NCBI GenBank assembly: GCA_017511715.1
Contig: JAFWJF010000001.1
Location: forward strand, 2,892 to 66,891
Length of the DNA stretch: 64,000 bases
Direction: 5' to 3'
Source of the DNA: Alphaproteobacteria bacterium
GTDB lineage: Bacteria > Pseudomonadota > Alphaproteobacteria > Rs-D84
The notes beneath the pieces are model-generated. The model was not told the DNA's origin and did not search any database. It saw only the letters and a list, made by a program, of their open reading frames with translations. Position 1 is the first letter of the stretch; every line of letters starts with the position of its first letter. Of the stretch, positions 2,611-47,000 are shown piece by piece. A program made the position numbers and the translations under genes.

Positions 2611-2663
2611 AAAAAATAAATCGCCCAAAAGGCGATTATCTTTTGGTGCGGGCAAAGGGAATC
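2611..2663. repeat. direct repeat DR1: terminator hairpin plus duplicated 3' end of tRNA-Gly(CCC)
   Basis: 53-bp copy (one mismatch) of 2791-2843. It contains aaataaatcgcccaaaaggcgat and the last ~20 nt of the minus-strand tRNA (tggtgcgggcaaagggaatc). Confidence 0.8.
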
Positions 2664-2790
2664 ACTCGACACTTCGTGTCTGTGTGGCAATCGTGACGAT
2701 TTTGGTGCGTTACACTTCCAAAATCTACTGCTTGTCGAACCCTTCGTTGCTGATGCAACTCTGGTCGGGTTCGCTTCCCTGCCCTTGGTA
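2664..2790 (-). mobile_element. tRNA-3'-end-associated repeat element, copy 1 (127 bp, bounded by DR1/DR2)
   Basis: Its reverse complement aligns closely with 32130-32243 (caacgaag..gggttcgacaagcagtagRttttggaag..cgcaccaaaa..acgattgcc..). It is immediately followed, in tRNA orientation, by the duplicated tRNA 3' end. Confidence 0.65.
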
Positions 2791-2843
2791 AAAAAATAAA
2801 TCGCCCAAAAGGCGATTATTTTTTGGTGCGGGCAAAGGGAATC
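2791..2843. repeat. direct repeat DR2, overlapping the genuine 3' end of tRNA-Gly(CCC)
   Basis: Identical to 2611-2663 except one base. Confidence 0.8.
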
Positions 2844-2897
2844 GAACCCTCGTCTAAAGCTTGGGAAGCTTTCGTTCTGCCATTATACCATGCCCGC
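2824..2897 (-). tRNA. tRNA-Gly (anticodon CCC)
   Basis: Reverse complement gcgggcatggtataatggcagaacgaaagcttCCCaagctttagacgagggttcgattccctttgcccgcacca. Cloverleaf with 7-bp acceptor stem, T-loop GGTTCGATTCC, encoded CCA. Confidence 0.85.
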
Positions 2898-3045
2898 AGA
2901 AACCGACCCAGTGATGATATATCTTTTTGTTTGAAATGTCCAGTGATTTTAATGCGCAAATGCAATTTTCTGCCTTTATTTATATATTGTGTGTATGCAA
3001 TAATCAGTCTGTTAGATGTTTTTTGGTTGTATAAAAGGTGTTCGT

Positions 3046-3642
3046 ATGACTAATAATGAAATTAAAGATACACTTAAGCAGGCAAGTCGCTTGGTTAATA
3101 CGATGGACAAAGAACATATAAAAAATTTATTAAGGGTATTTGTTGACGCGCAGTTTGAGAAAAACTGTGCGTCTTTCTTTTATATAGATATAAAAAAGAC
3201 ACTTAAAAAATTGTTAAGTGATTTGGTTAAAACAGAGCATGTGAACGGGGTTTTGAATCGTAAACAAATGAAGCAGGTTTTTGAGATAATGGGTGATTAT
3301 GGCTTTCGCCCTATATGCAAATTGTGTGGCAAACCAATAGAAATTAATTCCGTCAACCAAAGACATAAAGACCAGTTGAAAAATATGGCTTTCTCGTGGG
3401 ATCATCAGGTGCCAAAGTCAAAGGGTGGCAGTTATGATTTATCTAATTTGCAACCAACACATAAATTATGTAATAATAGACGCGGAACAAAGCCATTATA
3501 CAGCAGACACTATAAAATCAAGTTAAACATTGAACTTTCTGTAGAGTTAGAAGAACAAGGAACACGATATCGTCCTGCCAGCTTCGGTTTGCGAAAACAA
3601 GATTCTTGGTGTCATAAACAATGTTGCCAACGGCAAAGATAA
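3046..3642 (+). CDS. HNH endonuclease family protein
   Basis: Motifs CKLCGKPI...WDHQVPKSKGGSYDLSNLQPTHKLCNNRRG (HNH with zinc-binding Cys). Adjacent to the tRNA-Gly locus. The ORF could start at 3016. Confidence 0.6.
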   Translation: MTNNEIKDTLKQASRLVNTMDKEHIKNLLRVFVDAQFEKNCASFFYIDIKKTLKKLLSDLVKTEHVNGVLNRKQMKQVFEIMGDYGFRPICKLCGKPIEINSVNQRHKDQLKNMAFSWDHQVPKSKGGSYDLSNLQPTHKLCNNRRGTKPLYSRHYKIKLNIELSVELEEQGTRYRPASFGLRKQDSWCHKQCCQRQR

Positions 3643-6839: not shown

Positions 6840-7181
6840 ATGTCTCAAAATACTAGAATACAAAAGATAAAACTGTTTATAAAGATTTCTATCATTGTTG
6901 GTATATTGATTACATTTGTTGTGTTGGGGTTGTTTGTGCGCCCGATTACGACCTTTGAGAATGCACATATGAAAAAATGGTTGGTGCTGAACGATGTGCA
7001 ACGTATAAAAACTGTTGAACGCGTTGTTAAAACTCAAGAACATCAAGATTTGCTTATTAGATGTGTTGACAAGATTGCGAACTTGCCAAATTCTAATGAA
7101 ATGTTGATAAGTGATGCCGTGGCGATATGTTATGGCGGAATTCAACAGAATGCACAAAATGCACAGTCTGATGAAGAATAA
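6840..7181 (+). CDS. hypothetical membrane protein
   Basis: 113-aa ORF with one TM helix (ISIIVGILITFVVLGLFV). Confidence 0.35.
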   Translation: MSQNTRIQKIKLFIKISIIVGILITFVVLGLFVRPITTFENAHMKKWLVLNDVQRIKTVERVVKTQEHQDLLIRCVDKIANLPNSNEMLISDAVAICYGGIQQNAQNAQSDEE

Positions 7182-7866
7182 TTTATTTTTATTATCATTT
7201 TTACTTTTTGGGTGTGCAACAGAAACACATCAATATTATATTGGCGAACGTTATCTTGGGACAAAATATGTTTCTGACCCGTTGGGCGAAAAAAAATTTC
7301 CAGACCAAGACCCTTTAATTCGTTTTGATGCCTTTGATTGTACGACTTTTGTTGAAACGTCTTTAGCGGCAGGAAATGTAAAAAAATTAAATAAAATCAG
7401 ATATAAAAACGGCGAAGTTGATTTTATTTATCGCAATCATTTTATTGAAAGCGATTGGTTGAAAAACAATAAAAATTTTTTGGAAAATGTAAGCAACTTG
7501 TATGGCAAAACAGCAGTAAGGCATGTTGTTATTGATAAAAAATCTTGGTTTAAGCACGTGCATAATATTGATACTGATTTTTCCAAACAGGCTGTTGATA
7601 TTGAATATATACCGTATAAAAATTTATCAAAAATAGATATACAATCGCCATTAGTTGTGCTATTTATACATGACGGTGATGGTTTTTATGATAAAATCGG
7701 AACTGATTTAGCGGTTGTGCATATGGGATTTTTATTGCCAAATAACACACTGCGCCATGCATCCCGTAAACACGGAGTTGTCATGGATACAGATTTTTAT
7801 GAATATGTCAACAAACGCAAACAAAATGAACATAACCTTGGTATAGCATTGGTGAAAATAAAATGA
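7171..7866 (+). CDS. lipoprotein, DUF1460-like (amidase / transglutaminase-like fold)
   Basis: Lipobox LLFGC and motif DPLIRFDAFDCTTFVETSLA. Confidence 0.45.
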   Translation: MKNNLFLLSFLLFGCATETHQYYIGERYLGTKYVSDPLGEKKFPDQDPLIRFDAFDCTTFVETSLAAGNVKKLNKIRYKNGEVDFIYRNHFIESDWLKNNKNFLENVSNLYGKTAVRHVVIDKKSWFKHVHNIDTDFSKQAVDIEYIPYKNLSKIDIQSPLVVLFIHDGDGFYDKIGTDLAVVHMGFLLPNNTLRHASRKHGVVMDTDFYEYVNKRKQNEHNLGIALVKIK

Positions 7867-16168: not shown

Positions 16169-18112
16169 ATGTTATTTGTTAGGAGAAAGAGCATGAATCA
16201 AACTTTGTTAATTGTATTATTGTCCGTGGTTTCTTTGGTATTTGTTAATATGATTGCGATATTTTTTATTTCGCGCAAATCTCAACGCGTTATGGGGTCT
16301 TTGTTAGAAATTATGACAAATCCTGAACAGGCAAAAATACAAGATGCCGCCCGCGTTTTACAGACGATATTAAAGGACGAAATTACCAAAATTGATAATA
16401 ATTTTCAGATGATGGCAGGCGCAATGATGAACCAAATTGCGCACACAGAAGAAATAAAAAAGGCGCTTTCAGAACAAAATGATAAATTGGTCGCGACAGC
16501 GGATGAAGCAACAAAAAAAATTGCGGTTATGTCACAAAGACTGGAAAACACGATTGAAGGATTGAATGGTATCGTTTCGTCAAAAGGCTGGTTAGATGTG
16601 CAACAAAGCACGGATAATTTTTCTGCTGTAACGGAAGGCTTGTTAAACAAAATAACAGAAGCGACCACTGCAACCACAGAAAATGCATCTAAGATTCAAG
16701 AACAAATAAATCAGAGCATTGAAACAGAACAGCAAATAAGCGAACAGTTGCAAACGCATTTTGCAAATAATACTAATAATATGCAAGAATTGTCTGCTGC
16801 GGGCGTCGCGTTGCAACAACAACTGACTGATTTAAGTACTAGCGTGACCTCCGGCTTTGATAATGTCACGACTTCATCAAAGAATTATGAAGAAACAATG
16901 CGTCAAAACGATAAATTATTAAGCGAATATTTAACCAAAATGTCAGAATTTACAAAACGTGCAGGCAAAGAATTGACGCGCCAAGTTAACACAATGACCG
17001 AAACAGCAAATGTTGTTGGTGCAAATGTTCGTATGGCGGAAACATCAATAGATAAACAGTTGCGCAAATTAGAATCTGCAATAGAATCGCTTAATGCGTC
17101 GACAACGAACACAACGGCATCTGTACGTGGAATAACAAACGAATTGGCAGGGCTTACGAATCGTTTTGACAGTGAAATTCATGACTTTTCAACTGGGGTT
17201 GTTCGTGAAATCAAAGATGTGTCTGGTGTTGCAAACGCAACATTAGAAAACACTAAATCTGCAGCAACTGAATTTGCAGATTCTGTAAAAAGTATGGGTA
17301 TAGGCGTTCGTGAAACATTGATAGAAATGAACAAGGCACACACACAATTAGCCGGTCAGTCTGAAAACCTTATCAAAATGTCCACCGAAACCACGGAACA
17401 ATTAAAACCTTTGTCTGAATTGATAGAAAAGTATTATGTCGCCCTGCCCGATTTGGCGGCTGGTTCGCGCGACATGAGCGAAAACTTAAATACGATAGTT
17501 AACACGTTGGTTGAAAAAATCAACACTATGAAAACTACAATATCAGAATCTTTGGAAAACATAAACAATTCGTCTGTGCAGTTGGGTAATGTCGCGGGTG
17601 AATCACGTCAGCAAATGATAGATTTGATGGCTGATTATGCCAAGGCTGTTGATGCGATGCAAAGCCTTAATAAACAAATGATGGTTGCGCGGGCTTCTGC
17701 ACCGATGGATGCAATAAAGGTTGCGCCAAGTGCAAATTTTGCGCCGTTAAGCACGAAAGATTTTCTTAATAATGTAGATAAGTTATTTGATAAATTATAT
17801 GAACAGGCGGTCGATTTGACACGCGCATCTAATGCTGAAATACCTGATGTGGTGTGGGACAAATACAACGATGGCGACAAAAAGATATTTGCAAAGTGGT
17901 TGGTAAAAATGTTTAATGCCACGAACAAGAAACAAATTCATGATTTGTTGAAATCTGACAAGATATTTAATTCACAGGCAACGCAATTTGTCCGTAATTT
18001 CGAGAAAGTATTAAACGGTGCGAACCAAACTAATGAAGCAGATAAATTAAAGGCGACATTGCTTAAAACAGATTTGGGCGTAATATATACCGCGATACAT
18101 AAAAACATATAA
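16169..18112 (+). CDS. membrane-anchored coiled-coil protein (Q/T/N/E-rich), unknown function
   Basis: N-terminal TM segment LLIVLLSVVSLVFVNMIAIFFI followed by roughly 550 aa of predicted coiled coil. Confidence 0.5.
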   Translation: MLFVRRKSMNQTLLIVLLSVVSLVFVNMIAIFFISRKSQRVMGSLLEIMTNPEQAKIQDAARVLQTILKDEITKIDNNFQMMAGAMMNQIAHTEEIKKALSEQNDKLVATADEATKKIAVMSQRLENTIEGLNGIVSSKGWLDVQQSTDNFSAVTEGLLNKITEATTATTENASKIQEQINQSIETEQQISEQLQTHFANNTNNMQELSAAGVALQQQLTDLSTSVTSGFDNVTTSSKNYEETMRQNDKLLSEYLTKMSEFTKRAGKELTRQVNTMTETANVVGANVRMAETSIDKQLRKLESAIESLNASTTNTTASVRGITNELAGLTNRFDSEIHDFSTGVVREIKDVSGVANATLENTKSAATEFADSVKSMGIGVRETLIEMNKAHTQLAGQSENLIKMSTETTEQLKPLSELIEKYYVALPDLAAGSRDMSENLNTIVNTLVEKINTMKTTISESLENINNSSVQLGNVAGESRQQMIDLMADYAKAVDAMQSLNKQMMVARASAPMDAIKVAPSANFAPLSTKDFLNNVDKLFDKLYEQAVDLTRASNAEIPDVVWDKYNDGDKKIFAKWLVKMFNATNKKQIHDLLKSDKIFNSQATQFVRNFEKVLNGANQTNEADKLKATLLKTDLGVIYTAIHKNI

Positions 18113-18118
18113 ACATAA

Positions 18119-18149
18119 CGGCATAGAAAATATGCCGTTTGTTTTTTCT
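18119..18149 (+). terminator. rho-independent terminator
   Basis: cggcatagaaaatatgccg hairpin followed by a T-run. Confidence 0.6.
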
Positions 18150-18594
18150 CTTTTATTTGGTGTTTTTTTCTGTTAAAATAACTCTGTCGGCAAGAGTTTT
18201 GCCGATGGGGTGTCAGAACCCGTTTCGATGCGCGTCCATGATGACGTTAAAACTCCAACCAAATTGGGTTGGAGGGCTGCAAAATATATTGAATATGCAC
18301 ACAATTTCGCATTGAATTGTTCTGAACCTCCAACCGCCTGAAATTTCATGCGGTTTTTTTGGTGTTTGTCCCTTTCGTTGGGGTGTTGTGTGGCGATACA
18401 TACGCAAACATTTGCCACCGTCCCCCGAATAAAAGGGATAAAAAAGTTCTCCTCCGTTGGAGGAGTCCCCGCAGGGAGAGGTGGTCTTGAAAGGATGCCA
18501 GATATTTCAAATTCTTGAAAAAGACCACCCCGCCGTTCCGGCACCCCTCCGCAGGAGGGGAACTGGAAGCAGAGCGAATACAAAAAAAGGACAG

Positions 18595-18742
18595 AGAGAA
18601 TACAAGCAAGGTTTTGGAAACGAAGTGCACCGAAACCGTTGCGGTATACACGCAGACACAAAGTGTCGAGTGAATACGAGAACAAATAATTAGAAAAATC
18701 TTAAAAAATCGAAGTTTACAAGATTTTTTTGATTTTAATTAT
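18595..18742 (+). repeat. tRNA-associated repeat element, copy without tRNA duplication (long variant); likely carries a promoter
   Basis: ggttttggaaacgaagtgcaccgaaaccgtt...cacgcagacacaaagtgtcgagtg matches 32186-32243 and the reverse complement of 2664-2720. The 3' 75 bp matches 38622-38697. A TTTACA-N17-ATTATT promoter-like sequence and a GGAGG RBS lie directly upstream of 18763. Confidence 0.55.
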
Positions 18743-18762
18743 TGTTTATCGAGGAGGAAAAA

Positions 18763-19488
18763 ATGAAAAAGTTTTTGGTATTTATGTCGTTGGTGTTTGT
18801 GTGTGGTATTGCTTCCGCTGAAACAATAAATGTGAATTGGGTTGTTGATGGTGATACTTATGCGCAGACATCTTGCGAAACGGGTGGAAATTTTACTCTG
18901 CCAACAACGCCAACAAAATACGGGTATCATTTTGTTGGTTGGCAACAAGATGGTTCAATTGGTTATTGGGAACAATCGGGAACACCGACACCGGACAATC
19001 CAATCGAACCGATTTTCAGACAGTTTGGAAATACTGTTCTGCGTGCTGTGGGCAGTGGAAACAATTTAATTGCAGATAGTTATGATGTATCAACAGGAAA
19101 AATAACAAGAAGAATCGGGGTCAAGGTACTGGATGGAACGGAGACTTGGGCGACCGACCCGGTTGGAACAGGTGGACATATTAGATTTAATTATAGTTGG
19201 CCTGCTCCCTACAAAAAACCAGGGTTTGATATTTTGACAAATATGTTTCCTACTCAACCGGGCGTTGTTGGCCCAAACGCTACCAGTGCAGTGATAAGTG
19301 GGCACGACACTAACAGGAATATATACATTGCTTTCCCGGCAAACCTTTTAGATGGTGATTTAACCACTACTATAGGGCGCAGAACTGCCTTTAACAACTG
19401 GCTTTCTGCACAATACAACGCAGGTACACCTGTAATCATTTATTACCCATTGGCAACACCTGTTGAAGAAGCCTATAACGCACAATAA
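18763..19488 (+). CDS. secreted protein with a Listeria-Bacteroides-type repeat (Flg_new-like)
   Basis: Signal peptide MKKFLVFMSLVFVCGIASA. Motif NFTLPTTPTKYGYHFVGWQ. Related to parts of the giant protein at 41012. Confidence 0.6.
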   Translation: MKKFLVFMSLVFVCGIASAETINVNWVVDGDTYAQTSCETGGNFTLPTTPTKYGYHFVGWQQDGSIGYWEQSGTPTPDNPIEPIFRQFGNTVLRAVGSGNNLIADSYDVSTGKITRRIGVKVLDGTETWATDPVGTGGHIRFNYSWPAPYKKPGFDILTNMFPTQPGVVGPNATSAVISGHDTNRNIYIAFPANLLDGDLTTTIGRRTAFNNWLSAQYNAGTPVIIYYPLATPVEEAYNAQ

Positions 19489-19490
19489 AC

Positions 19491-20222
19491 ATGAGAAAGA
19501 TTGTTTTTGTTTTTATTGTTGTTTTTAATGCGCCCCTTGCATACGCTGATTTAATTACCGACAATACTTCTAATTATTGTGATTTTATAAGTATGCAGCC
19601 AAATTTATCGGCAGTATTTGAACCGAATGAATACACCTGTGCAAGCGGTTATTATTTACCTGTGAATCACGATGGGTGCGAACCATGCCCAAGTGAACAC
19701 ACATGCAATGGCGGAACTTTTACTTTTGATGAAAATGAATCACAGGGGATAACGTATGGCACAATAATAACATCTGGATATGATTACGGCTGTGACCCAC
19801 ATCTTGCTTTTGGTTTTTATACGGCGGTATTCGAACCAAATTCTCACGAATGTTCATCGGGTTATTATTTGCCGGCAAGCACCGACGAATGTATAATTTG
19901 TCCGCAAAATTCTTATTGTAGTGGTGGTGTGTTCTTTTTTAATGAAACAGAAAATCAGGGTATAAATACATGTGCGCCAGGTTTATTTTCGCCGTCTGGT
20001 TCGTCATCTGATTCACAGTGTGGACATAAATTACACGTTGGTAATGATGTTGTTTATCTGCGTAGTGTAAAAAAGACAGTGCCATCACTTCATGTGAAAA
20101 TTGGCAATGATATTTATTATGGCAATATGACAAAGATACGAACAAAGATGAACACAGATTTAATGCGGTATTTTCGTATCGGTGATTATTATTTGTGTGA
20201 TGATACAACGTGTCCAGAATAA
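19491..20222 (+). CDS. secreted cysteine-rich repeat protein that shares a ~65-aa C-terminal domain with the giant surface protein
   Basis: Signal peptide. Two CxSGYYLPxxxDxCxxCP repeats. C-terminus CGHKLHVGNDVVYLRSVKKTVPSLHVKIGNDIYYGNMT...YYLCDDTTCPE parallels the last 65 aa of the 3533-aa protein. Confidence 0.6.
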   Translation: MRKIVFVFIVVFNAPLAYADLITDNTSNYCDFISMQPNLSAVFEPNEYTCASGYYLPVNHDGCEPCPSEHTCNGGTFTFDENESQGITYGTIITSGYDYGCDPHLAFGFYTAVFEPNSHECSSGYYLPASTDECIICPQNSYCSGGVFFFNETENQGINTCAPGLFSPSGSSSDSQCGHKLHVGNDVVYLRSVKKTVPSLHVKIGNDIYYGNMTKIRTKMNTDLMRYFRIGDYYLCDDTTCPE

Positions 20223-20223
20223 T

Positions 20224-20252
20224 AAAAAAAACGCCCATACAGGCGTTTTTGT
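20224..20252. terminator. bidirectional rho-independent terminator
   Basis: aaaaaaaacgcccatacaggcgttttt. Confidence 0.6.
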
Positions 20253-20253
20253 C

Positions 20254-31263: not shown

Positions 31264-31354
31264 GGAGATGTGGCAGAGCTGGTTGAATGCGCGTGACTCG
31301 AAATCACGTATACGGGCAACCGTATCGGGGGTTCGAACCCCTCCATCTCCGCCA
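31264..31354 (+). tRNA. tRNA-Ser (anticodon CGA)
   Basis: ggagatgtggcagagctggttgaatgcgcgtgactCGAaatcacgtatacgggcaaccgtatcgggggttcgaacccctccatctccgcca. Long variable arm, CCA encoded. Confidence 0.85.
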
Positions 31355-31369
31355 GAAAAAAGGTTGTTT

Positions 31370-31948
31370 ATGAACAAAAATTTGCACGATATTATTTTTT
31401 CAATATACGAATATTTTGGCAAGGATAGAGAAAAACTTGATGAGGCGCGGTCCGAATTTTACCGTATTGGCGAAGCCAACCCACGTGTAGCCCTTATGTT
31501 ATATCGAGCATTATTGACAGATTATATAAACCAAAAAAAGAAAAAAATTGCTTTAGCCGATACAATGCGAATATATTTGATAGTTTCTACTAACGCAGAC
31601 TTTTATCTGATACACCCTATTGATGCATTGTCCATGCCAGAAGCAGATAAGTTCTATGAAACATATCACATAAGATATCCGCGTTCATCAACCATATCAA
31701 AAATCTTAATTAACATGAACAGATTTGATTCTGACAAACCAAAAGGCAAACTAGATTTTAAGAACAAATTGCGCGTAAAATATACAGTAAAAGATTCAAA
31801 CTATCCACACTCGTTCAATAAAAGGATGTTTTTACTGAATAAAAATCGCATCAGCAAAGATACCGTATATAAGAAATTAAGCGGATTAAACAAATTTTTC
31901 ATAGCACAAGCCTATAAAAAATACTTGAAAAAACAAAAATCTTTGTAA
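31370..31948 (+). CDS. hypothetical protein inside the tRNA-Ser islet
   Basis: 192-aa ORF (MNKNLHDIIF...) lying between the tRNA and the duplicated tRNA 3' end. Confidence 0.4.
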   Translation: MNKNLHDIIFSIYEYFGKDREKLDEARSEFYRIGEANPRVALMLYRALLTDYINQKKKKIALADTMRIYLIVSTNADFYLIHPIDALSMPEADKFYETYHIRYPRSSTISKILINMNRFDSDKPKGKLDFKNKLRVKYTVKDSNYPHSFNKRMFLLNKNRISKDTVYKKLSGLNKFFIAQAYKKYLKKQKSL

Positions 31949-31962
31949 AAAGAAATCACACA

Positions 31963-32108
31963 TCAAAATCATATGAATTAACAGATTTTACAATCGCATC
32001 AACCAATTTGTTTTGATGAGAATCTGATTTTAATAATTTTTCTTCGTTTTTGTTGGACAAATGCCCCAGTTCTATCAATGCACCCGGTACAGTCGAACGC
32101 AATACTGG
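31963..32108. repeat. direct duplicate of the 3' end of amiC (~145 bp, one mismatch), partner at 33898-34042
   Basis: tcaaaatcatatgaattaacagattttacaatcgcatcaacc...cgaacgcaatactg present twice. Confidence 0.85.
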
Positions 32109-32258
32109 TCATTTTTTATTTATCGTGTATGGGTATGGGGTTAGACGCTACAACGAAGTTGTTGGGTTCGACAAGCAGTAGGTTTTGGAAGCAAGGCGCA
32201 CCAAAACCGTTACGATTGCCCCGCAGGCGAAAGCCGAGGAAATCCTCCATCTCCGCCA
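32109..32258 (+). mobile_element. tRNA-3'-end-associated repeat element (short variant) ending in a duplicated tRNA-Ser(CGA) 3' end
   Basis: Core caacgaagttgttgggttcgacaagcagtaggttttggaagcaaggcgcaccaaaaccgttacgattgcc, about 85% identical to the reverse complement of 2664-2760. The final 15 nt cctccatctccgcca equal 31340-31354. Confidence 0.7.
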
Positions 32259-32288
32259 TAAATAAAAAAAGACACAAACCGGTCTTTT

Positions 32289-33875
32289 TTATCTGCTGTT
32301 GTCAGGAATTGTCTTGTCCTGTGTTTTTGTAGTTGTTTTTTTTAACAGTTTTTTTACTGCATTTTTCAATTTTTCTTTTTTGCTTTCCCCTTGCATTTTC
32401 AATTTCAGTTCGTTTGCGAAATCTTTAAACTTTTCATGCAAAACAATTGATACTTTGTGAGGTTCTGGTTTCACAAAAATATTATCACTCCATAAAAAAT
32501 CACTCCCTATTCCTTTAACATTTGGCAGATTTATCGACTTTAAGTTTGTATTTTCAGTTAAAAATTCATCGCCAATATCTTCTACTTTCGGTAAACTTAT
32601 TGATGTTAACATTTTATTGTAATACAAGAATCTATTACCAATTTTTTCAACTTTTGGCATGTTTATTGATGTTAATATTTCGTTATTTTCCAAGAAATAG
32701 TCGCCAATTCTTTTTACAGATGGCAAATCTATTGATGTCAATGCGTTATTAGAATTTAAGAAATGCATACCGATTTGTTCGACCTTTGGTAGCGCTATTG
32801 ATGATAACATCTTGTTCTTCACTAAGAAATCACAACCAATTTTCTTAACATTTGGTAAATTTATTGTTGTTAAACTTTTGTTGTGTTCTAAAAAAACGTC
32901 TTTAATTTTTTCTGTTGTAGCTAAATCTAATTCTATAATCTGCCCTTTGAATATTACAATACGATTGCCGTCCAGTGTGGATAACGTCGTTTCTTTTGTT
33001 ATTTTGTTATATGTTCTGGTAACTTTTTTCCCGTTAAATGCCAGATAAAAAACATCAAATGTTGTGCCGTAATCAATTGGTGAAGTTATTGTTTTATCTT
33101 TATCATTATAAATCATGCCATCAAACATGATTTCGCGGTCTTTGTTCAATCGTGTAATTGTGCCACCAGTAAAATAATAATCGTCACCGATGTAAATGTT
33201 GTCTCTTTCAAAACTGTACCAGACCAACTGGTCATTAACCCAAACATAGTTATTTGGCATTTTAATATCAGAAACATTGAATTCTACATCAAAGAATTTT
33301 CGCAATGAATTTGTAAGTCCCGGGATGATATTATCTGGGTTATTACCGAATGTTGCATCTGGATTGTTTACTGTATGGTTATAACGATTTTTAATAGATA
33401 TAAATCCACCACCCTTTGCAATTTGAATTGATATAACAGATGTTCCGTATTCGTCTTCGCGTTCTGGATTTGCGGATGGTTTTATTTTGTCTGCGCCACG
33501 TTTTACCGCATGAATTATATAAAAGTTTTCATGCCTATTGGGGTCACTGAAAGTACATAATTCTTCGCCGGGGCGATAATATTTTTTTATTGAATCTTTT
33601 TGTTTTTTACTTTCAACTATAAACGCGTCATAGCCCGCTTCATCTAACAATTCTAACGGCTTTTTATCTGTGGTATATTGGGATGCAGACATTATTTTAC
33701 ATTTAGACCGGATTGTTGGTATCAATCTTTCTAGATCTTCTAATTGTGTAAATTCTAATATGTGTTCAATATTTGGAACATCCAGCAATTCGGCATTGCG
33801 AAGAATCTTGGCAAAACGTTCACCGCGATGCTTTTTAATATTTTTAAAAACTTCGGCTGTATCTATTTCTTTCAT
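32289..33875 (-). CDS. BspA-type leucine-rich repeat protein with unknown N-terminal domain
   Basis: C-terminal tandem repeats of about 23 aa (LPNVKKIGCDFLVKNKMLSSIALPKVEQIGMHFL...). No signal peptide. Confidence 0.7.
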   Translation of the reverse strand: MKEIDTAEVFKNIKKHRGERFAKILRNAELLDVPNIEHILEFTQLEDLERLIPTIRSKCKIMSASQYTTDKKPLELLDEAGYDAFIVESKKQKDSIKKYYRPGEELCTFSDPNRHENFYIIHAVKRGADKIKPSANPEREDEYGTSVISIQIAKGGGFISIKNRYNHTVNNPDATFGNNPDNIIPGLTNSLRKFFDVEFNVSDIKMPNNYVWVNDQLVWYSFERDNIYIGDDYYFTGGTITRLNKDREIMFDGMIYNDKDKTITSPIDYGTTFDVFYLAFNGKKVTRTYNKITKETTLSTLDGNRIVIFKGQIIELDLATTEKIKDVFLEHNKSLTTINLPNVKKIGCDFLVKNKMLSSIALPKVEQIGMHFLNSNNALTSIDLPSVKRIGDYFLENNEILTSINMPKVEKIGNRFLYYNKMLTSISLPKVEDIGDEFLTENTNLKSINLPNVKGIGSDFLWSDNIFVKPEPHKVSIVLHEKFKDFANELKLKMQGESKKEKLKNAVKKLLKKTTTKTQDKTIPDNSR

Positions 33876-38458: not shown

Positions 38459-38535
38459 GCACCCATAGCACAACTGGATAATGCGTTGGCCTCCGAAGCC
38501 AAAGATTGCAGGTTCGAGTCCCGCTGGGTGCGCCA
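38459..38535 (+). tRNA. tRNA-Arg (anticodon CCG)
   Basis: gcacccatagcacaactggataatgcgttggcctCCGaagccaaagattgcaggttcgagtcccgctgggtgcgcca. Confidence 0.85.
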
Positions 38536-38539
38536 TGAA

Positions 38540-38572
38540 TAAAAAAAGACCCAGCAGGGTCTGTTTTTTATT
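38540..38572 (+). terminator. rho-independent terminator after tRNA-Arg
   Basis: aaaaaaagacccagcagggtctgtttttt. Confidence 0.6.
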
Positions 38573-38575
38573 CAC

Positions 38576-38712
38576 TTATGAAGCACCGCGGGACAGGTCA
38601 GAGCGAAGCGCATGACCAATCCGCAGATAAACAATTAAGAAAATATTAAAAAATCGACGTTCACGAGATTTTTTTGATTTTATTTATTGTTTATCAAGGG
38701 CTGGGTGCGCCA
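38576..38712 (+). mobile_element. tRNA-associated repeat element (long variant) ending in a duplicated tRNA-Arg 3' end
   Basis: 38622-38697 is about 85% identical to 18667-18742. The upstream part is a diverged version of the core (aagcgca..acc.a.ccgcag). It ends with gctgggtgcgcca, equal to 38523-38535. Confidence 0.6.
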
Positions 38713-41011: not shown

Positions 41012-44000
41012 ATGGCGGGAATCAAGCCTTTTTATAACATGTTAAAGCGTTTAATATTTGCAATATTCGTAGTGTTTACTGCAAATTCTGCATTTGCGGC
41101 GTGTGCTAGCAATCAAATTGATGTAAATGGTGATGGAACCAAATGTGAGGATGTGAAATTCACATTAGACCTTTCCAGAAGTTCAAACATAACGGTTTTC
41201 AATTTCTTTATGTCTGCCAAAGGAACATTTTATGTCGATTGCGGCAATGGCGGAACATTGACCAGCAATTCTGCCACTAATTACCCGGTATCGGGCAAAA
41301 CAGTTAACCGTACCTATGGAACGGGTAATGTAAGGTACTCTTGTACATGGGCCAATGGCAGCAAGACACAAACAATTAGGTTTGGTGGGGTTGCAGAAGG
41401 ATATAGCACCAATACAAGCACCGCCGCAATACGTTTTAATTATAATGCAACACAAGCGGCATATATAACATCAGTTTCTGGTAATTTGTCCGCTATGTTC
41501 CCGTATATTACAAACAATGCACAAAGTGGTGCACAACCAAGATTTTATATGACTTTTGATAAAGCGACAAACCTGAAAAGTATCCCCGATACATTGTTTG
41601 CAAATTACACAACACCGGCAACAAATATGTTTCATTCTACGTTTAACAATTCAGGATTGACATCAATACCTAGCAATTTGTTTTCCACCATATCTGGCGC
41701 AGCAGAAGGTCTGTTTTCTAGCACATTTAATGGATGTACCGGCTTAACATCAATACCTGGCAATTTGTTTTCCACCATATCTGGCGCAGCAAACAGCTTG
41801 TTCTATGGCACATTTCAGAATTGTACCGGCTTAACATCAATACCTAGCAATTTGTTTTCCGGGGTGTCTGGCGGGGCAAGTTCTATGTTTTTTTTCACGT
41901 TTAAAGGATGTACCGGCTTAACATCAATACCTGGCAATCTGTTTTCCACCATATCTGGCGCAGCAAACAGCTTGTTCTATGGCACATTTAGTGGATGTAC
42001 CGGCTTGACATCAATACCTAGCAATTTGTTTTCCACCATATCTGGCGCAGCAGACGGTCTGTTTTCTAACACATTTAATGGATGTACCGGCTTAACATCA
42101 ATACCTGGCAATCTGTTTTCCGGGGTGTCTGGCGGGGCAAGTTCTATGTTTTCTTACACGTTTAATGATTGCAGTTCGATATCTGCAATACCGGCAGGAC
42201 TATTTTCCGGTGTAAACCAGGCGGCAACAGGTTTGTTCATGAATGCATTTTCTGGTTCTGGGGTAAGTGGTTATATACCACCGACCACATTTTCCGGGTT
42301 GATTTCGGCGGGCAGCCCACAAAGTTCAGATATGTGGCTAGATACATTTTCATACACGAATTTAACAGCGACTTGTCCACAGGGAACAACGCAGTATATG
42401 ACAGGATACGAAGGTGGCACTAATGGTCCTACATGGAATGGGATGGTTTCTTGTACGCCAAATTCGACCACTGCAATTGCAGTAACTTTGGACAGTGCAG
42501 GCGCGACCACAAATGCCACACCTTCGACAATATATCTTCGATACGAGGATCGTTGGTACAGTAATTCTGCCCTTTCTGTTCAGATAAGTTCGCTTAACAC
42601 CATTCCATCAAAAACGGGATATATGTTCGGCGGTTTTTACACTCAACCAAATGGTTCCGGAATACAAATTATCAATTCAAATGGTTACATCTTGCAAACC
42701 ATGGAAGCAATCACGTTTACAACCACACCGACAACCGTGTATGCTTATTGGATAGAACCAAAGTTCACATTAACAACATCATCGACCAACAGTTTTCAAT
42801 TTAAACTATCTGCCGCTGGTACATTCTATGTAGACTGCGGAAACGGTGGAACGTTAAGTGGAACCGGGGCGTCCGGAAACACAATTACGCGTGCCGACAC
42901 AACCGAAGCGACATATACATGTTCATGGACCAACAGTGCAACACGAACAATCAGATTCAGCGGTGCCGCAACCGGGTATAATTCGTCTTATGGTGTTGCA
43001 GCAATAAAGTTTAATATGACAGATGCTGCCACTGATGCAAACGCAGCATTGTTAACGGGTATGTCTGGCACACTGGGGTCAATATTCGGAACAGTTGCCA
43101 CCGCCAGCACAGGCTCTGTTCAACCAGCATTTAATAAGACATTTTATGGTGCATCAAACCTTAATGCGTCAATACCGTCAAACTTTTTTGCGGGCGTTCA
43201 TGGTGCACCACGCGGGGGAATGTTTCAACAAACCTTTTCTGGATGCAGCAGTTTGACCGGCTCTATCCCAGAAACCCTATTCTGTGAAAACACGACCAAT
43301 CCAAGTGCATCAAACTGTATCTATGGAGCACCAATTGGGGCAATGTTTGAACATACATTCCTTGGTTGTAGTGGTTTGACGGGTTCTATCCCAGAAAAAC
43401 TGTTTGTGGGTATCCATGGCGCGCCTGCAAGTTATATGTTTTCTCAGACATTTAATGGATGTAGTGGTTTGACGGGTTCTATCCCAGAAAAACTATTCTG
43501 TCAAAACACAACCAGCCCATCTGCATCAAACTGTATCTATGGCGCACCGGCATCATCTATGTTTGCCTTGACATTTTATGGATGTAGTGGATTAACTGGC
43601 TCTATTCCAGAAAAACTGTTCGTTGGTATCCATGGTGCACCAGCAAATAATATGTTTCAACAAACATTCTATAATTGTAGTGGTTTAACTGGCTCTATTC
43701 CAGAAAAACTATTCTGTCAAAACACAACCAGTCCATCTACATCAAACTGTATCTATGGCGCGCCGGCAAGAGCTATGTTTTTTCACACTTTTTCTGGTTG
43801 TACAAATTTAACTGGTTTGATACCACAAAACCTTTTCAAAGGGATATACGGCGCGCCGGCAGAAAATATGTTTAATGGTACATTTAGGAATGACAACAAA
43901 TTGACAGGAATAACCGACGGCACAACTACCACAACCTATGTTCCATCAACATTCCTTAGCGCGATTAACAACACAAGCGCAACAACACCAGCAACAGGAA

Positions 44001-47000
44001 TGTTTACTGGTACGGGGCTTGCATCGTCTTGTCCGACGTGGGCAGCCGCCGCAACACCGGTATGGGCAACTGATGCTGGTAAGCCATGGTGCGAACCAGA
44101 TATAAAATTCACATTAAACACATTAGCGACTAACAGTTTTCAATTTAAACTATCTGCCGCTGGTACATTCTATGTAGACTGCGGAAATGGCGGAAGGTTA
44201 AGTGTGGTAAACGGTAACGGAACAGTTTCTGGGAATACGATAACAAAAACAGGTACTTCGTGGGGGACATTTGAATGTTCTTGGGATGATACCGAACCAC
44301 AAACACTTCGATTTGGTGGTGCAGCATCAGGGTACACTGCAAGCCAATCAGGCGGTGCAATAAGATTTAATGTTTCTGATACAAACCAAGATGATGATAC
44401 AAACGCACCAAAGATCACCGGAATATCCGGGTCATTGGGTGCAATATTTGGAACCATAGATGGCACGGTTTCCCCAACAGGCGCGGAATCACAACCAAGA
44501 TTCTATGGAACATTTTGGGCTGCATCCAACCTTGCTGGTTCAATACCAGACGAGCTTTTCTATGGCATACATGGCACACCAATATCATATATGTTTAACC
44601 GTACTTTCCGTGGTTGTAGCAGTTTAACTGGAAAAATACCTGAAACATTATTCTGTCAAAACACAAGCAACCCAAATGCATCAAACTGTATTTATGGCGC
44701 ACCGACACAACAGATGTTTTACATGACTTTTCACGGATGTAGCGGTTTGACAGGAAATTCTTCAACCGGATATGCCATTCCTGCAAAATTATTTGCAGGT
44801 ATTCGTGGTGATCCATCTTCAGCATCGAGTGTGTTTGGTTATACATTTTCCGGTTGTAGTGGTTTAAATGGGCAAATACCTGAAACATTATTCTGTCAAA
44901 ACCCGAACAGCCCCAGTGCATCAAACTGTATCTATGGTGCGCCGGCATCAAATATGTTTTCATTTACATTCCAAGGATGCACTGGTTTGACAGGTGACGG
45001 TATACATGCCGTTCCAGTAAAGTTGTTTGCAGGTCTCCATGGCGCGCCGGCACCAAAAATGTTTCAATCTACTTTTACTGGCGACACAGGATTGACAGGG
45101 GAAATTCCACCTGCGCTATTCTGTGGTGGTAATACGAATAATCTGAGTAATCCATCTGCCTCAAACTGTATCTATGGCACCCCGGCAACAGAAATGTTTA
45201 ATAGTACGTTTTATAATACTAGAATAACACATGTAGATAAAAATATGTTTGCGGGGATATCCGGTACTTCTGCGGAAAAGATGTTCTATCGTACATTTAA
45301 AAGTTGTAGTTCATTGTCGTACATAAATGATACCTTTAACACAAAAGCGACAACTTACATTCCGTCAGATTTCCTTGGTGGCATTACTGATGGATCCGTG
45401 ACAAATGACGCAACAGAAATGTTCACAGGTACGGGACTCACATCACCTTGTCCGACGGGGACAGCCACCGCAACACCGGCGTGGGCAACGGATGCTGCCA
45501 AACCATGGTGTGCACCCAACACATATAGCATTACATATGATATGAATGGTGGAACAAACTATTCCGGCGCACCTACAACATATGTTTATGGGACAAGTAC
45601 AACAATTAATGGCGCACCAACAAAATCAGGCTATATATTCAAAGGATGGACTGGTTCTAATGGTTCAACACCACAACCAACCGTGACGATTGGTGCAAGT
45701 GCCACCGGGGCAAAATCTTACACTGCGAACTGGGAAACGGCAAAATTCACATTAACCACATCAGGAATGAGCGATTTCAGCTTCAAGCTTTCGCCAAAGG
45801 GAACATTCTATGTCGATTGCGGAAATGGTGGAACGTTAAGTGGTCAAAGCGCGTCCGGCAGTACAGTTTCCGTCAACACAATCACACGTACAACCACAAC
45901 CGCAACAACATATACTTGTAGCTGGGCCAGTAGTGCTGGAAACAAAACAATATCTTTTGGCGGGTCTGCCACAAATACCACAACAACATATAACTCAGAT
46001 ACGAACGTACCAGCAATACATTTTTTGGAAAGTAGTAATGCAGACTCAATCAAAAGCGTATCTGGTAATTTGTCCGCGATGTTCCCGTACATCACATCAA
46101 ATGCACAAAGTGGTGCTCAACCAAGGTTTAACAGAACATTTTATGATGCAACACACTTGACCAGTGTTCCCGATACATTATTCGCAAATTATACCACACC
46201 CGCAACATATATGTTTAGTAATACATTTGCAAGTTCTGGGTTAACATCGATACCGGCGGGACTGTTTTCCCGCATAACCGGTGCAGCAACCGGTTTGTTC
46301 GAGGGTACATTTAGCGGTGCGCGCTTAACATCAGTGCCGGCGGGGCTATTTGCCGGGATATCTGGTGTGGCAGACAGTTTGTTTAATAGCACATTTACTG
46401 GCACACCAATAACATCTATACCAGAGAATTTGTTTGCCGGGGTATCGGGGTCTGCATCTGGCGTGTTTTCTTACGCTTTTTATCGTTGCGCTAGCCTGGC
46501 CACCATAACAAATGGGCAAACAAGTACGACCTATGTTCCGGGAACGTTCCTTAGTGATGTTACTGGCAATGACAATTACATTGGTGCCGACATGTTTGGC
46601 ATGACAGACTTGGCTGACACCTGTCCATATGGTATGGGCGATACAACACCGGCATGGGCAAGTGATGCTGGTAAACCATGGTGTTCTCCCAATACATATA
46701 CAATAACCTATTCTGCCGGTCAAGGTGGCGTTGGTGCAAACCAAACGGAAAACGTTGTGTTTGGCACCACATTTACCACAAAATCTGCAAATACGTTTAG
46801 TAAACCACACGCTACATTTACAGGCTGGGATACTCTTGAATACTCTTCAGCCTGGACACAACCAGATACAACATATACTTATGATTTGCCGTCAGATATT
46901 ACGATTGCAGCACAATGGACATGTGATTCTGGATACACATTAAATAACAGCACCGGAAATTGCGATGCCAACAGTATCACATGTGATCCAGGTTTTTATC

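What the first reader, a model, noticed from the sequence alone, without database searches (positions are those of the whole stretch)
18150..18742. 590-bp non-coding, hairpin-dense region between the coiled-coil gene and the secreted-protein pair
No credible ORF. The region has multiple perfect inverted repeats: aactccaaccaaattgggttggag, ccgcctgaaatttcatgcgg followed by a T7 run, ctcctccgttggaggag, and cctccgcaggagggg. It ends in the repeat-element copy. I tried to read a tmRNA or RNase P RNA into it and could not match the conserved motifs. It may be a structured sRNA, a decayed islet, or several nested repeat insertions.
Basis: seen in the sequence. Interest (0 to 1): 0.5.

Follow-up and report, generated by a model that had tools for sequence, protein, structure and literature searches.

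The report
Conserved leader RNA plus repeat debris
The 590-bp gap is not one RNA: its first third is a previously uncatalogued, strongly structured leader RNA with a built-in terminator switch, found in at least about 150 copies ahead of secreted-protein genes in small-genome gut bacteria (Candidatus Enterousia), and the rest is palindromic repeats plus a recent 164-bp insertion.

Summary

The region is a mosaic.
- 18171-18362 is a complete transcription unit: an extended -10 promoter, a 177-nt multi-helix RNA and an intrinsic terminator.
- A covariance model finds 159 matches (151 distinct sequences) in Ca. Enterousia MAGs and gut/rumen metagenomes. 95-96% of cells are paired and 45 of 51 pairs show compensatory changes.
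- No Rfam 15 family matches, and ARAGORN finds no tmRNA.
- A motif present three times (c1 CUCCAACC, c2 GGUUGGAGG, c3 CCUCCAACC) covaries. It gives two exclusive folds: P4+P1+terminator, or a 9-11 bp c2:c3 antiterminator.
- 74% of downstream genes start about 24 nt after the terminator and encode signal-peptide proteins.

I read it as a conditional terminator (riboswitch-like leader) with an unknown effector.

The remainder:
- 18365-18442 is an unexplained hairpin.
- 18445-18564 is an inverted pair of REP-like units.
- 18599-18762 is a 164-bp insertion absent from a 97%-identical relative. It is built from the right ends of small islands that sit at tRNA 3' ends elsewhere in the window.

It is not tmRNA, RNase P, 6S or SRP.

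The parts
18117..18148 (.). Bidirectional terminator-like hairpin (AACGGCATA-GAAAA-TATGCCGTT) plus a T-run. It ends the coiled-coil gene (16169-18112).
   Evidence: The terminator scan reports it on both strands. It is inverted repeat I2.
18171..18179 (+). Extended -10 promoter TGtTAAAAT of the leader RNA. The transcription start is inferred at about 18186.
   Evidence: Read from the sequence. Of 144 family copies, 137 have a good -10 hexamer, 112 have it 6-7 nt upstream of the first helix, and 67 carry the TG extension.
18186..18362 (+). Leader RNA, 177 nt.
- P0: 18186-93 / 18199-206.
- P1a: 18207-11 / 18326-30.
- P1b: 18213-19 / 18319-25.
- P2: 18224-31 / 18309-16.
- P3: 18232-36 / 18243-47.
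- P4 (c1:c2): 18253-60 / 18267-74.
- P5: 18278-81 / 18296-99, with a conserved loop.
- P6 (alternative to P2): 18301-06 / 18315-20.
- Terminator: 18332-37 / 18350-55, then T7.
   Evidence: Covariance model hits of 219 bits (R1) and 183.5 bits (R2). The fold has z -5.4.
18327..18335 (+). c3 (CCUCCAACC). It pairs either with the 5' GGGG (P1a) or with c2 at 18267-18275 to form the antiterminator helix ALT. Its last 4 nt are the first 4 nt of the terminator's 5' arm.
   Evidence: Inverted repeat I11 is 100% complementary over 9 nt. ALT is at least 9 contiguous bp in 130 of 138 copies, with at least 7 covarying variants.
18365..18442 (.). Long imperfect hairpin of unknown nature. It is shared only with the near-identical relative L178.
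   Evidence: Inverted repeat I5. nhmmer hits only L178 911-992.
18445..18564 (.). Inverted pair of 44-nt REP-like palindromic units (18445-18488 in reverse orientation, 18521-18564 forward).
   Evidence: Inverted repeat I1. Similar units occur at L040 11413-11458, just after a gene stop, and about three times in L162 315-475. On the minus strand, 18465-18449 is terminator-like.
18599..18762 (+). 164-bp insertion relative to L178. It consists of module A (about 18599-18683) and module B (18684-18757).
   Evidence: Window 17901-18598 matches L178 450-1145 at 97%. Window 18763-19600 matches L178 1147-1987 at 92%. A single base in L178 stands in place of 18599-18762.
18602..18676 (+). Module A. 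It is homologous to the distal ends of small islands bounded by duplicated tRNA 3' ends: tRNA-Gly 2659-2735(-), tRNA-Ser 32171-32232(+), and L174 tRNA-Met.
   Evidence: nhmmer E-values of 8.7e-6 and 0.013, and reciprocal hits.
18684..18757 (+). Module B. It is 87% identical to 38629-38699, the distal end of the tRNA-Arg island. It carries a promoter-like site (TTTACA-16-AATTAT, 18715-18742) and the GAGGAGG Shine-Dalgarno (18751-18757) of the secreted-protein gene that starts at 18763.
   Evidence: plus the sequence.

Best explanation
The region is a mosaic of one functional RNA element and repeat debris.

(1) The leader RNA, 18171-18362. This is a self-contained unit made of an extended -10 promoter, a 177-nt RNA and an intrinsic terminator.
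- It belongs to a large, previously uncatalogued family of Ca. Enterousia (order Rs-D84, Alphaproteobacteria with genomes of about 0.75-1 Mb).
- I propose that it works as a conditional transcription terminator, that is, an attenuator or riboswitch-like leader, for the co-oriented gene downstream. That gene is usually a signal-peptide protein.
- The RNA folds into a closed multi-helix domain (P1a/P1b/P2 enclosing P3, P4 and P5), followed directly by the terminator.
- One motif occurs three times: c1, c2 and c3.
- When c2 pairs with c1 (hairpin P4) and c3 pairs with the 5' GGGG (P1a), the terminator is free to form and transcription stops. This yields a 177-nt RNA.
- When c2 instead pairs with c3 (9-11 bp), P1 and P4 are broken and 4-8 nt of the terminator's 5' arm are sequestered. 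RNA polymerase then reads through into the gene.
- P2 and P6 are a second pair of mutually exclusive helices.
- Energy calculations put the default state at termination, so an unidentified effector (small molecule, protein, RNA or kinetic signal) must favour the c2:c3 state.

What is shown: family membership, the helices, the covariation, the competing pairings, the promoter, and the position relative to genes.
What is inferred: that the pairings act as a switch, and that something regulates it.

(2) The rest, 18365-18762. This is not conserved beyond close relatives.
- It holds an unexplained hairpin and an inverted pair of REP-like palindromic units.
- It also holds a 164-bp insertion (18599-18762) derived from the right end of tRNA-targeting mini-islands.
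- That insertion now supplies the Shine-Dalgarno sequence and a promoter-like site for the secreted-protein gene.
- In this genome the leader may therefore be partly uncoupled from its gene.
For: Family and structure
- nhmmer finds 21 copies in 17 of 81 Enterousia loci.
- Model R1 finds 22, 91 and 46 matches in three searches, which are 151 distinct sequences.
- Covariation on A7: 96.1% of cells paired, 38 of 51 pairs compensatory, score 0.618 against 0.178 for shuffles and at most 0.086 for slid registers.
- Covariation on A8 (88 distinct sequences): 95.0% paired, 45 of 51 pairs compensatory, score 0.607 against 0.173.

The switch
- c2:c3 is 9 nt and 100% complementary in the window (I11).
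- It is at least 9 contiguous bp in 130 of 138 copies, and pure Watson-Crick in 109.
- The variable parts of c1, c2 and c3 change together: AACC, UGACC, UGCC, UGAACC, UGGCC, AGCC, and CCCCGACC in L007/L014.
- P6 covaries: ACAAU/AUUGU becomes ACUAU/AUAGU.
- Energies for the domain up to the terminator: about -56 kcal/mol for the terminating fold and -42 to -46 for the c2:c3 fold.

Promoter and position
- Each copy has its own -10 hexamer 6-7 nt upstream of P0.
- 115 non-redundant copies have a Shine-Dalgarno-preceded ORF on the same strand. The median start is 24 nt after the terminator, which leaves no room for another promoter.
- 85 of those 115 are signal-peptide-like, against 30% of control ORFs.
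- The window's own downstream genes both have signal peptides.

Genomic setting
- The closest relatives have the coiled-coil gene directly followed by the kinase-like gene.
- The leader plus secreted-gene module is therefore a variable insertion at a hotspot, and different cargo sits behind the same leader in other genomes.

Not a known RNA
- Rfam at gathering thresholds, Rfam at E up to 10 on the region, and Rfam at E up to 1 on ten other loci with copies all give nothing.
- ARAGORN finds no tmRNA.

Debris
- L178 lacks 18599-18762.
- REP-like units occur elsewhere.
- Modules A and B match the ends of the tRNA islands.
Against: - There are no expression data and no ligand. The switch is inferred from sequence alone.
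- The terminating fold is 10-13 kcal/mol more stable than the c2:c3 fold, and P1 is long (12 bp). This is unlike typical ligand-gated P1 helices.
- Tandem arrays of 2-4 complete copies exist, each with its own promoter and terminator (L102, L140, L144). These look more like sibling sRNA genes.
- About a quarter of downstream genes are not secreted proteins. Many of them are 50-100 aa proteins, several with XRE-type HTH domains.
- 17 copies have no Shine-Dalgarno-preceded ORF within 150 nt.
- In this window the leader is 400 nt from the gene, and module B offers its own promoter-like site.
- The covariation counts were made on alignments fitted to the model, which leans towards the structure.
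- The metagenome copies were fished with a pattern that fixes part of the P5 loop, P6 and CCUCC.
Confidence: 0.6

Rival explanations
1. The 177-nt RNA is mainly a trans-acting small RNA family of multicopy 'sibling' sRNAs. Its CCUCC (anti-Shine-Dalgarno) or GGAGG motifs, or its conserved loops, would act on other mRNAs or titrate a protein. Read-through into the downstream gene would be incidental.
For: - Every copy has its own strong promoter and intrinsic terminator.
- The fold is very stable and termination is the default.
- There are tandem arrays of 2-4 complete units.
- The loops are conserved: the P0 loop RGUGUUYY and the P5 loop GAAUAUAUUGAAUAA.
- The CCUCC motif is complementary to ribosome-binding sites.
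Against: - CCUCC and GGAGG are base-paired in both predicted states.
- 115 of 139 copies that are neither followed by another copy in tandem nor cut off by a contig end are followed at a median of 24 nt by a co-oriented, Shine-Dalgarno-preceded ORF with no room for a promoter.
- The three-way covariation of c1, c2 and c3, which overlaps the terminator arm, is what a cis switch needs and is not needed for a trans-acting seed.
- Complementarity between c3 and the gene's own Shine-Dalgarno region is barely above the cross-copy control: 4.43 against 4.23.
Confidence: 0.25
2. The conserved unit acts at the DNA level. It would be a portable promoter/5' region that serves as a recombination site for exchanging surface-protein cassettes (antigenic variation), or as an attC-like folded site. 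The 'helices' would then reflect DNA hairpins or inverted repeats.
For: - It heads variable cargo inserted at a hotspot between conserved convergent genes.
- It is present in many copies per genome. At least 6 lie on three contigs of one human-gut assembly.
- c2 and c3 are perfect inverted repeats, and c1 and c3 are direct repeats.
Against: - Seven separate helices covary, including long-range ones.
- G-U pairs are frequent at fixed positions: pairs 1-40 and 43-339 are mostly G-U. These would be C-A mismatches on the other strand, so one strand is the folded one and it is the transcribed strand.
- The copies are highly diverged (45-220 bits) rather than homogenised.
- No recombinase gene is seen next to them.
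- No inverted c2-c3 segment was observed, although I did not search for one systematically.
Confidence: 0.07
3. The whole 590 bp is one known housekeeping RNA: tmRNA including the two-piece alphaproteobacterial form, RNase P RNA, 6S or SRP RNA.
For: - The organism is an alphaproteobacterium, where permuted tmRNA is expected.
- The region is long and structured.
Against: - No Rfam family reaches its threshold anywhere in the window except 5 tRNAs.
- Nothing relevant appears even at E up to 10 in 17900-19000.
- ARAGORN finds no tmRNA in the window.
- Only the first 177 nt are conserved, and they are multicopy.
- The second half is absent from relatives or interrupted in them.
Confidence: 0.01
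4. The region encodes the 170-aa minus-strand protein (18173-18685) that the ENA annotation calls.
For: The ORF exists and was called by a gene finder.
Against: - It uses a TTG start, has no Pfam match and has an odd Cys/Leu/Phe-rich composition.
- It is broken by stops and a frameshift in the 97%-identical L178.
- Its sequence overlaps an RNA whose helices covary.
Confidence: 0.02

Closest known systems
Terminator/antiterminator leader RNAs: riboswitches, T-box leaders, and protein-controlled attenuators such as the PyrR or trp leaders
   Same: - It lies in a 5' leader with its own promoter.
- It has a conserved, covarying multi-helix domain followed directly by an intrinsic terminator.
- One segment (c3) is shared between the domain-closing helix, the terminator arm and an alternative antiterminator helix.
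- There is an anti-antiterminator hairpin (P4).
- Tandem copies also occur, as they do for some riboswitches.
   Different: - It matches no Rfam 15 family.
- The effector is unknown.
- The closing helix is unusually long and stable, so termination looks like the default.
- The downstream genes are functionally heterogeneous secreted or surface proteins and small HTH proteins, not one pathway.
- The motif is present in three copies whose variable part differs between copies in one genome.
Multicopy sibling sRNAs with anti-Shine-Dalgarno motifs, such as the alphaproteobacterial CcsR/'cuckoo' RNAs and AbcR (recalled from memory, not tested here)
   Same: - It is alphaproteobacterial and multicopy, sometimes in tandem.
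- Each unit has its own promoter and terminator.
- It carries C/U-rich CCUCC motifs.
   Different: - Those RNAs expose the CCUCC motif in hairpin loops. Here it is paired.
- Those are not positioned as leaders of co-oriented genes.
- No Rfam model of such families hits.
REP/BIME-type extragenic palindromes and Rickettsia palindromic elements
   Same: 18445-18564 is an inverted pair of GC-rich units of about 44 nt. The units are imperfect palindromes, they are extragenic, and similar units recur in other Enterousia contigs, once as a cluster of three.
   Different: - Only a few copies were seen here.
- No RAYT-type transposase was looked for.
- The unit sequence is specific to this lineage.
- This applies only to the middle of the region, not to the leader.
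Integrase-type islands at tRNA 3' ends, and their gene-less derivatives (CIME-like cis-mobilisable elements)
   Same: - Modules A and B (18599-18757) match the distal ends of inserts bounded by direct repeats of tRNA 3' ends.
- The repeats are 13-50 nt, at tRNA-Gly, tRNA-Ser and tRNA-Arg in the window and at tRNA-Met in L174.
   Different: - In the region of interest there is no tRNA and no clear target duplication.
- The islands seen are tiny (130-1900 bp) and carry no integrase.
- Module A has RNA-like covarying hairpins of unknown role.

Membership tests
tmRNA (one-piece or permuted two-piece) | tRNA-like domain with a T-arm and an acceptor end in CCA, plus a tag reading frame. These are detectable by ARAGORN and by the Rfam tmRNA models. 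| tested here: not met
   ARAGORN finds no tmRNA in the 64-kb window. No tmRNA family hits in 17900-19000 even at E up to 10.
RNase P RNA, 6S RNA, SRP RNA | A match to the curated covariance models, that is, the conserved core helices and motifs. | tested here: not met
   The Rfam gathering scan of the window returns only 5 tRNAs. The permissive scan of the region returns only noise of 12-23 bits.
Any Rfam 15 family | A score at or near the family's gathering threshold. | tested here: not met
   The best hit overlapping the leader is 16 bits against thresholds of 35-60. Ten other loci holding 14 or more copies give no family at E up to 1.
Riboswitch-like or attenuator leader RNA (generic kind) | A conserved structured domain supported by covariation. 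| tested here: met
   95-96% of cells are paired, and 38 of 51 and 45 of 51 pairs have compensatory changes. These values are far above the shuffled and slid controls. Caveat: the alignments were fitted to the model.
Riboswitch-like or attenuator leader RNA (generic kind) | An expression platform in which an intrinsic terminator competes with a mutually exclusive antiterminator. | tested here: met
   There is a terminator stem followed by a T-run. The c2:c3 helix of 9-11 bp overlaps 4-8 nt of the terminator's 5' arm in 130 of 138 copies and covaries. The function of the competition is inferred.
Riboswitch-like or attenuator leader RNA (generic kind) | A location in the 5' untranslated leader of the regulated gene. 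| tested here: met
   Of 156 non-redundant copies, 115 are followed by a co-oriented ORF with a Shine-Dalgarno sequence, at a median of 24 nt. A further 7 are followed by another copy, 17 lie at a contig end and 17 have no such ORF. In this window the gap is 400 nt.
Riboswitch-like or attenuator leader RNA (generic kind) | A specific effector (metabolite, ion, tRNA or protein) that shifts the fold. | not testable with these tools
   No ligand can be inferred. The downstream genes share secretion, not a pathway.
REP/BIME-like extragenic palindromes (for 18445-18564) | Short GC-rich imperfect palindromes that are extragenic, dispersed and often in inverted pairs. | tested here: met
   The arms are 44 nt and 75% complementary. 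Related units occur in L040, L162 and L178. The copy number per genome is unknown.
Integrative island at a tRNA gene (for modules A and B) | An insert bounded by a direct repeat of the tRNA 3' end. | tested here: not met
   This is met for the tRNA-Gly, tRNA-Ser and tRNA-Arg inserts in the window and for L174 tRNA-Met. It is not met for the copy in the region of interest, which has no tRNA fragment and no clear duplication.
Integrative island at a tRNA gene (for modules A and B) | An integrase or recombinase gene within the element. | tested here: inconclusive
   None is present in the 130-1900 bp inserts seen. The 190-aa ORF 31371-31948 has no Pfam hit when tested as the longer ORF 31268-31948. 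Full-length relatives were not found, and IMG/VR gave 0 hits.

The most novel reading that the evidence does not exclude
The leader is a new class of regulatory RNA. It could be a riboswitch for an unknown signal or the target of a dedicated antitermination factor. In either case it would place much of the variable secreted and surface proteome of a reduced-genome gut symbiont lineage (Rs-D84/Enterousia) under one RNA-based control. Its three-copy covarying 'address' (c1/c2/c3) would give each copy its own private switch sequence.
Probability: 0.3. Interest if true: 0.8.

Novelty: new variant of a known kind. Interest (0 to 1): 0.6.

Why it matters
Ca. Enterousia and its order Rs-D84 are uncultured gut and rumen Alphaproteobacteria. 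Their genomes are about 0.75-1 Mb and they have few regulators (PMC12306168). Their secreted and surface proteins are the likely interface with host or partner cells.

One RNA element has well over a hundred diverged copies, very strong covariation and a legible terminator switch, and it sits in front of these genes. It is therefore a concrete, testable candidate for how such organisms control their surface proteome.

It is also an orphan structured RNA that is absent from Rfam. For annotation, it explains a spurious 170-aa gene call and similar calls in related MAGs.

Tried and rejected
- Known RNAs. Rfam at gathering thresholds on the window, Rfam at E up to 10 on 17900-19000, on 2560-2900 and on 31950-32300, and Rfam at E up to 1 on ten other loci returned only tRNAs and noise. 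The noise included a 12-bit tmRNA_permuted hit and a 12.7-bit RtT hit near tRNA-Gly. ARAGORN found no tmRNA.
- Protein coding. The minus-strand ORF was rejected.
- DNA uptake sequences. I looked for Neisseria- or Pasteurellaceae-type uptake sequences, because the terminator resembles an inverted DUS pair. No over-represented 9-12-mer of that kind exists in the window.
- Tertiary contacts. I tested loop-loop or pseudoknot contacts among the P0 loop, J1/2, J3/4, the P4 loop, the P5 loop and J5/6. Own-copy complementarity is no better than cross-copy complementarity.
- Pairing with the gene's ribosome-binding site. I tested whether c3 pairs specifically with the downstream gene's own Shine-Dalgarno region. 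The effect is marginal (4.43 against 4.23) and is confounded by relatedness.
- Small ORFs. I looked for a leader peptide or a start codon after the internal GGAGG. None is conserved (sequences).
- Integron attC similarity of c1/c2. The core-site consensus is not met, and it is absent in the CUGACC-type copies.
- IMG/VR scan for module A. It gave 0 hits.
- A broader covariance model from A7. Model R2, built from A8, added only two weak extra hits and no second copy in the window.
- My first search pattern had one N too many and found nothing. It was corrected.
Full report
**What is in the sequence**

The interval between the stop of the 647-aa coiled-coil gene (16169-18112) and the ATG of the first secreted protein (18763) is 650 bp.
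- The terminal repeat is real: 18684-18754 is 87% identical to 38629-38699.
- The region folds far better than dinucleotide shuffles, with z -8.3 on the + strand and -7.3 on the - strand.
- Its G+C rises to about 0.5 in a window averaging 0.39.
- The only long ORF is 170 aa on the minus strand with a TTG start. The ENA annotation calls it as a gene.
- That ORF has no Pfam match and is broken by stops and a frameshift in a 97%-identical relative.

**Organism and setting**

- The window is an ENA metagenome scaffold.
- The coiled-coil protein has more than 1,300 relatives, all from uncultured Alphaproteobacteria.
- 80 genome loci fetched with it are mostly labelled Candidatus Enterousia, or as rumen or gut Alphaproteobacteria MAGs.
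- Enterousia belongs to order Rs-D84. Its members have genomes of about 0.75-1.0 Mb (PMC12306168).
- In these loci the conserved order is a UvrD-like helicase (-), the coiled-coil gene (+), a kinase-like gene (-) and rpoD (-).
- In the closest relatives the coiled-coil gene is followed within a few tens of bases by the kinase-like gene.
- Everything from 18113 to 20253 in the window (the region of interest plus two secreted-protein genes) is therefore a variable insertion at a hotspot. Other genomes carry different cargo there.

**The first third is a conserved RNA**

- BLASTN and nhmmer with the region against the 80 loci hit only its first 250 bp. There are 21 copies in 17 loci, and some loci have two.
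- Each copy has a -10 box, a run of covarying helices and a stem followed by a T-run.
- I built a covariance model (R1) from the window copy and L006, using a hand-drawn structure. It recovered 22 copies in the genome loci.
- R1 then found 91 and 46 further copies in those loci. In all there are 151 distinct sequences.
- Only one copy lies in the 64-kb window.

Covariation is very strong.

| Alignment | Cells paired | Pairs with compensatory changes | Covariation score | Shuffled control | Slid registers |
|---|---|---|---|---|---|
| A7, 22 genome-derived copies | 96.1% | 38 of 51 | 0.618 | 0.178 | at most 0.086 |
| A8, 88 distinct metagenome copies | 95.0% | 45 of 51 | 0.607 | 0.173 | at most 0.079 |

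There are two caveats. The alignments are fitted to the model, and the metagenome set was selected by a pattern. The compensatory changes are also visible by eye in unaligned sequences.

G-U pairs at fixed positions show that the + strand is the folded strand.

No Rfam 15 family matches this copy or 14 others, and ARAGORN sees no tmRNA.

**Anatomy in window coordinates**

- Promoter: TGtTAAAAT at 18171-18179. Of 144 copies, 137 have a good -10 hexamer, 112 have it 6-7 nt before the first helix, and 67 carry the TG extension.
- RNA: 18186-18362.
  - P0 is a 5' hairpin with a conserved loop.
  - P1a pairs GGGGU with ACCUC.
  - P1b pairs UCAGAAC with GUUCUGA.
  - P2 pairs UUCGAUGC with GCAUUGAA.
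  - P3 is a variable hairpin. It carries a 30-50 nt insertion in a 'long form' subfamily.
- P4 pairs CUCCAACC with GGUUGGAG.
  - P5 is short, with the conserved loop GAAUAUAUUGAAUAA.
- The terminator is at 18332-18355 and is followed by T7.
- The RNA alone has z -5.4.

**The switch**

The 3' arm of P4 (c2, GGUUGGAGG, 18267-18275) is perfectly complementary to c3 (CCUCCAACC, 18327-18335) (I11).
- The first five bases of c3 form the 3' strand of P1a.
- The last four bases of c3 are the first four of the terminator's 5' arm.
- Across the family the variable part of this motif changes in c1, c2 and c3 together. The variants are AACC, UGACC, UGCC, UGAACC, UGGCC, AGCC, and CCCCGACC with GGGG in L007/L014.
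- c2:c3 is at least 9 contiguous base pairs in 130 of 138 copies, and pure Watson-Crick in 109. P4 averages 7.7 bp.

This gives two mutually exclusive states.
- State 1 has P1, P2 and P4 formed and the terminator free to form.
- State 2 has c2:c3 formed, P1 and P4 broken and the terminator arm sequestered.

A second exclusive pair exists. P6 (ACAAUU/AAUUGU, which covaries to ACUAU/AUAGU) encloses the 3' strand of P2 in its loop.

This is the classic logic of terminator, antiterminator and anti-antiterminator.

ViennaRNA puts the terminating fold 10-13 kcal/mol below the c2:c3 fold. Termination is therefore the likely default, and an effector would be needed for read-through. That the pairings act as a regulated switch is inference.

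**What lies downstream**

- Of 156 non-redundant copies, 115 are followed on the same strand by an ORF with a Shine-Dalgarno sequence. The median start is 24 nt after the terminator, which leaves no space for another promoter.
- 85 of those 115 (74%) have a signal-peptide-like N-terminus by a crude hydrophobicity rule, against 30% of long control ORFs from the same loci. Several of the 'negatives' are mis-called starts.
- The cargo proteins are diverse. They include Cys-rich repeat proteins, BspA-type LRR proteins and Listeria-Bacteroides-repeat proteins like the window's sec1.
- A minority are proteins of 50-100 aa, several with XRE-type HTH domains.
- Seven copies are followed by another copy. 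L102 has four complete units in 850 bp, each with its own promoter and terminator.
- These arrays and the stable default fold are the main support for the rival reading, a family of trans-acting sRNAs.

I rate the cis-attenuator reading at 0.6 and the sRNA reading at 0.25. The two are not fully exclusive.

**The rest of the region is debris**

Only a near-identical relative, L178 from a rumen metagenome, shares 18362-18598.
- L178 is 97% identical over 17901-18598 and 92% identical over 18763-19600.
- A single base in L178 stands in place of 18599-18762, so that 164-bp stretch is a recent indel.

18365-18442 is a long hairpin of unknown nature.

18445-18564 is an inverted pair of 44-nt units.
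- Similar units follow a gene stop in L040 and form a cluster of three in L162.
- They therefore behave like REP/BIME-type extragenic palindromes.
- One arm is terminator-like on the minus strand.

The 164-bp insertion has two modules.
- Module A (about 18602-18676) matches the distal ends of small inserts that are bounded by duplicated tRNA 3' ends. These are at tRNA-Gly and tRNA-Ser in this window and at tRNA-Met in L174.
- Module B (18684-18757) matches the distal end of the tRNA-Arg insert, which is itself 164 bp.
- Module B carries a promoter-like site and provides the GAGGAGG Shine-Dalgarno sequence of sec1.

In this particular genome the leader is therefore 400 nt from its gene and may be partly bypassed.

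**Comparison with known systems**

- In mechanism the leader works like a riboswitch or T-box-style attenuator. It meets the generic criteria that I could test, namely a covarying domain, a competing terminator and antiterminator, and a leader position.
- It is a member of no catalogued family, and its effector is unknown.
- It differs from typical riboswitches in its long, stable closing helix, in the heterogeneous secretion-linked cargo, and in a three-copy motif whose sequence differs between copies in one genome.
- Sibling sRNAs with CCUCC motifs are a looser analogy, recalled from memory and not tested.

**Verdict**

The finding is real and more interesting than 'hairpin-dense spacer'. 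It contains a new, abundant and well-supported structured RNA family of a known mechanistic kind, followed by ordinary repeat and insertion debris. Interest is 0.6.

Noticed in passing
window 2611-2897(-), 31264-32258(+), 38459-38712(+); L174 9232-11235(-): Three of the five tRNA genes in the window are followed by a small insert bounded by a duplicate of the tRNA 3' end.
- tRNA-Gly(ccc): 50-nt repeat at 2791-2840 and 2611-2660, with a 130-nt insert.
- tRNA-Ser(cga): 15-nt repeat at 31340-54 and 32244-58, with an 889-nt insert holding a 190-aa ORF that has no Pfam hit.
- tRNA-Arg(ccg): 13-nt repeat at 38523-35 and 38700-12, with a 164-nt insert.
- L174 shows the same at tRNA-Met, with a 26-nt repeat and a 1.9-kb island.

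A conserved module of about 75 nt with covarying hairpins always abuts the distal repeat in the Gly, Ser and Met cases. In the Ser and Met cases it forms a T-arm-like hairpin with the tRNA fragment. The Gly insert folds with z -4.6, closed by pairing to the tRNA fragment. No integrase was seen, and IMG/VR gave no hit.
   Followed up: partly
L102 157-1001; L140 8626-9382; L144 406-799; L163 1646-2056; L165 89-499: There are tandem arrays of 2-4 complete leader RNA units. In L102, the array I read, each unit has its own promoter and terminator.
   Followed up: partly
L007 7000-7174; L014 7000-7174: These loci hold a divergent leader variant. All three motif copies have switched together from CUCC/GGAG/CCUCC to CCC(U)/GGGG/CCCCC. 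This suggests that further, more distant subfamilies were missed by the models.
   Followed up: partly
window 18113-20253 versus L002-L081 (about 6930-7600): The gap between the convergent coiled-coil gene and the kinase-like gene next to rpoD is a hotspot. It is empty in the closest relatives. Elsewhere it holds different leader-plus-secreted-protein cassettes, or insertions longer than 5 kb.
   Followed up: partly
L097 4223-4375 and 8636-8789; L087, L155, L127, L186 and others: Some leader copies (about 10 of the 115 with a downstream ORF) precede small proteins of 60-120 aa, several of which match XRE-type helix-turn-helix families (HTH_31, HTH_19, HTH_3), rather than secreted proteins.
   Followed up: partly
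window 41012-51613 (+): There is a single 3,533-aa ORF. That is very large for a genome of about 0.9 Mb. I did not examine it.
   Followed up: no
window 3016-3642 (+): An HNH endonuclease gene (Pfam HNH, E 1.3e-9) lies next to tRNA-Gly(ccc), which carries the 130-nt insert.
   Followed up: no
window 19491-20222 (+) and many downstream proteins in L006, L020, L049, L066 and L070: The secreted cargo proteins share Cys-rich repeats of the form C..GYYLP....C..CP....C.GG.F. These have no Pfam family above threshold.
   Followed up: no
window 18572-18586, 18594-18608, 18668-18682: There are three direct copies of GAGnGAATAC. They lie upstream of the 164-bp insertion, at its left junction, and at the boundary between modules A and B. 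They may be a trace of how the insertion arose.
   Followed up: no
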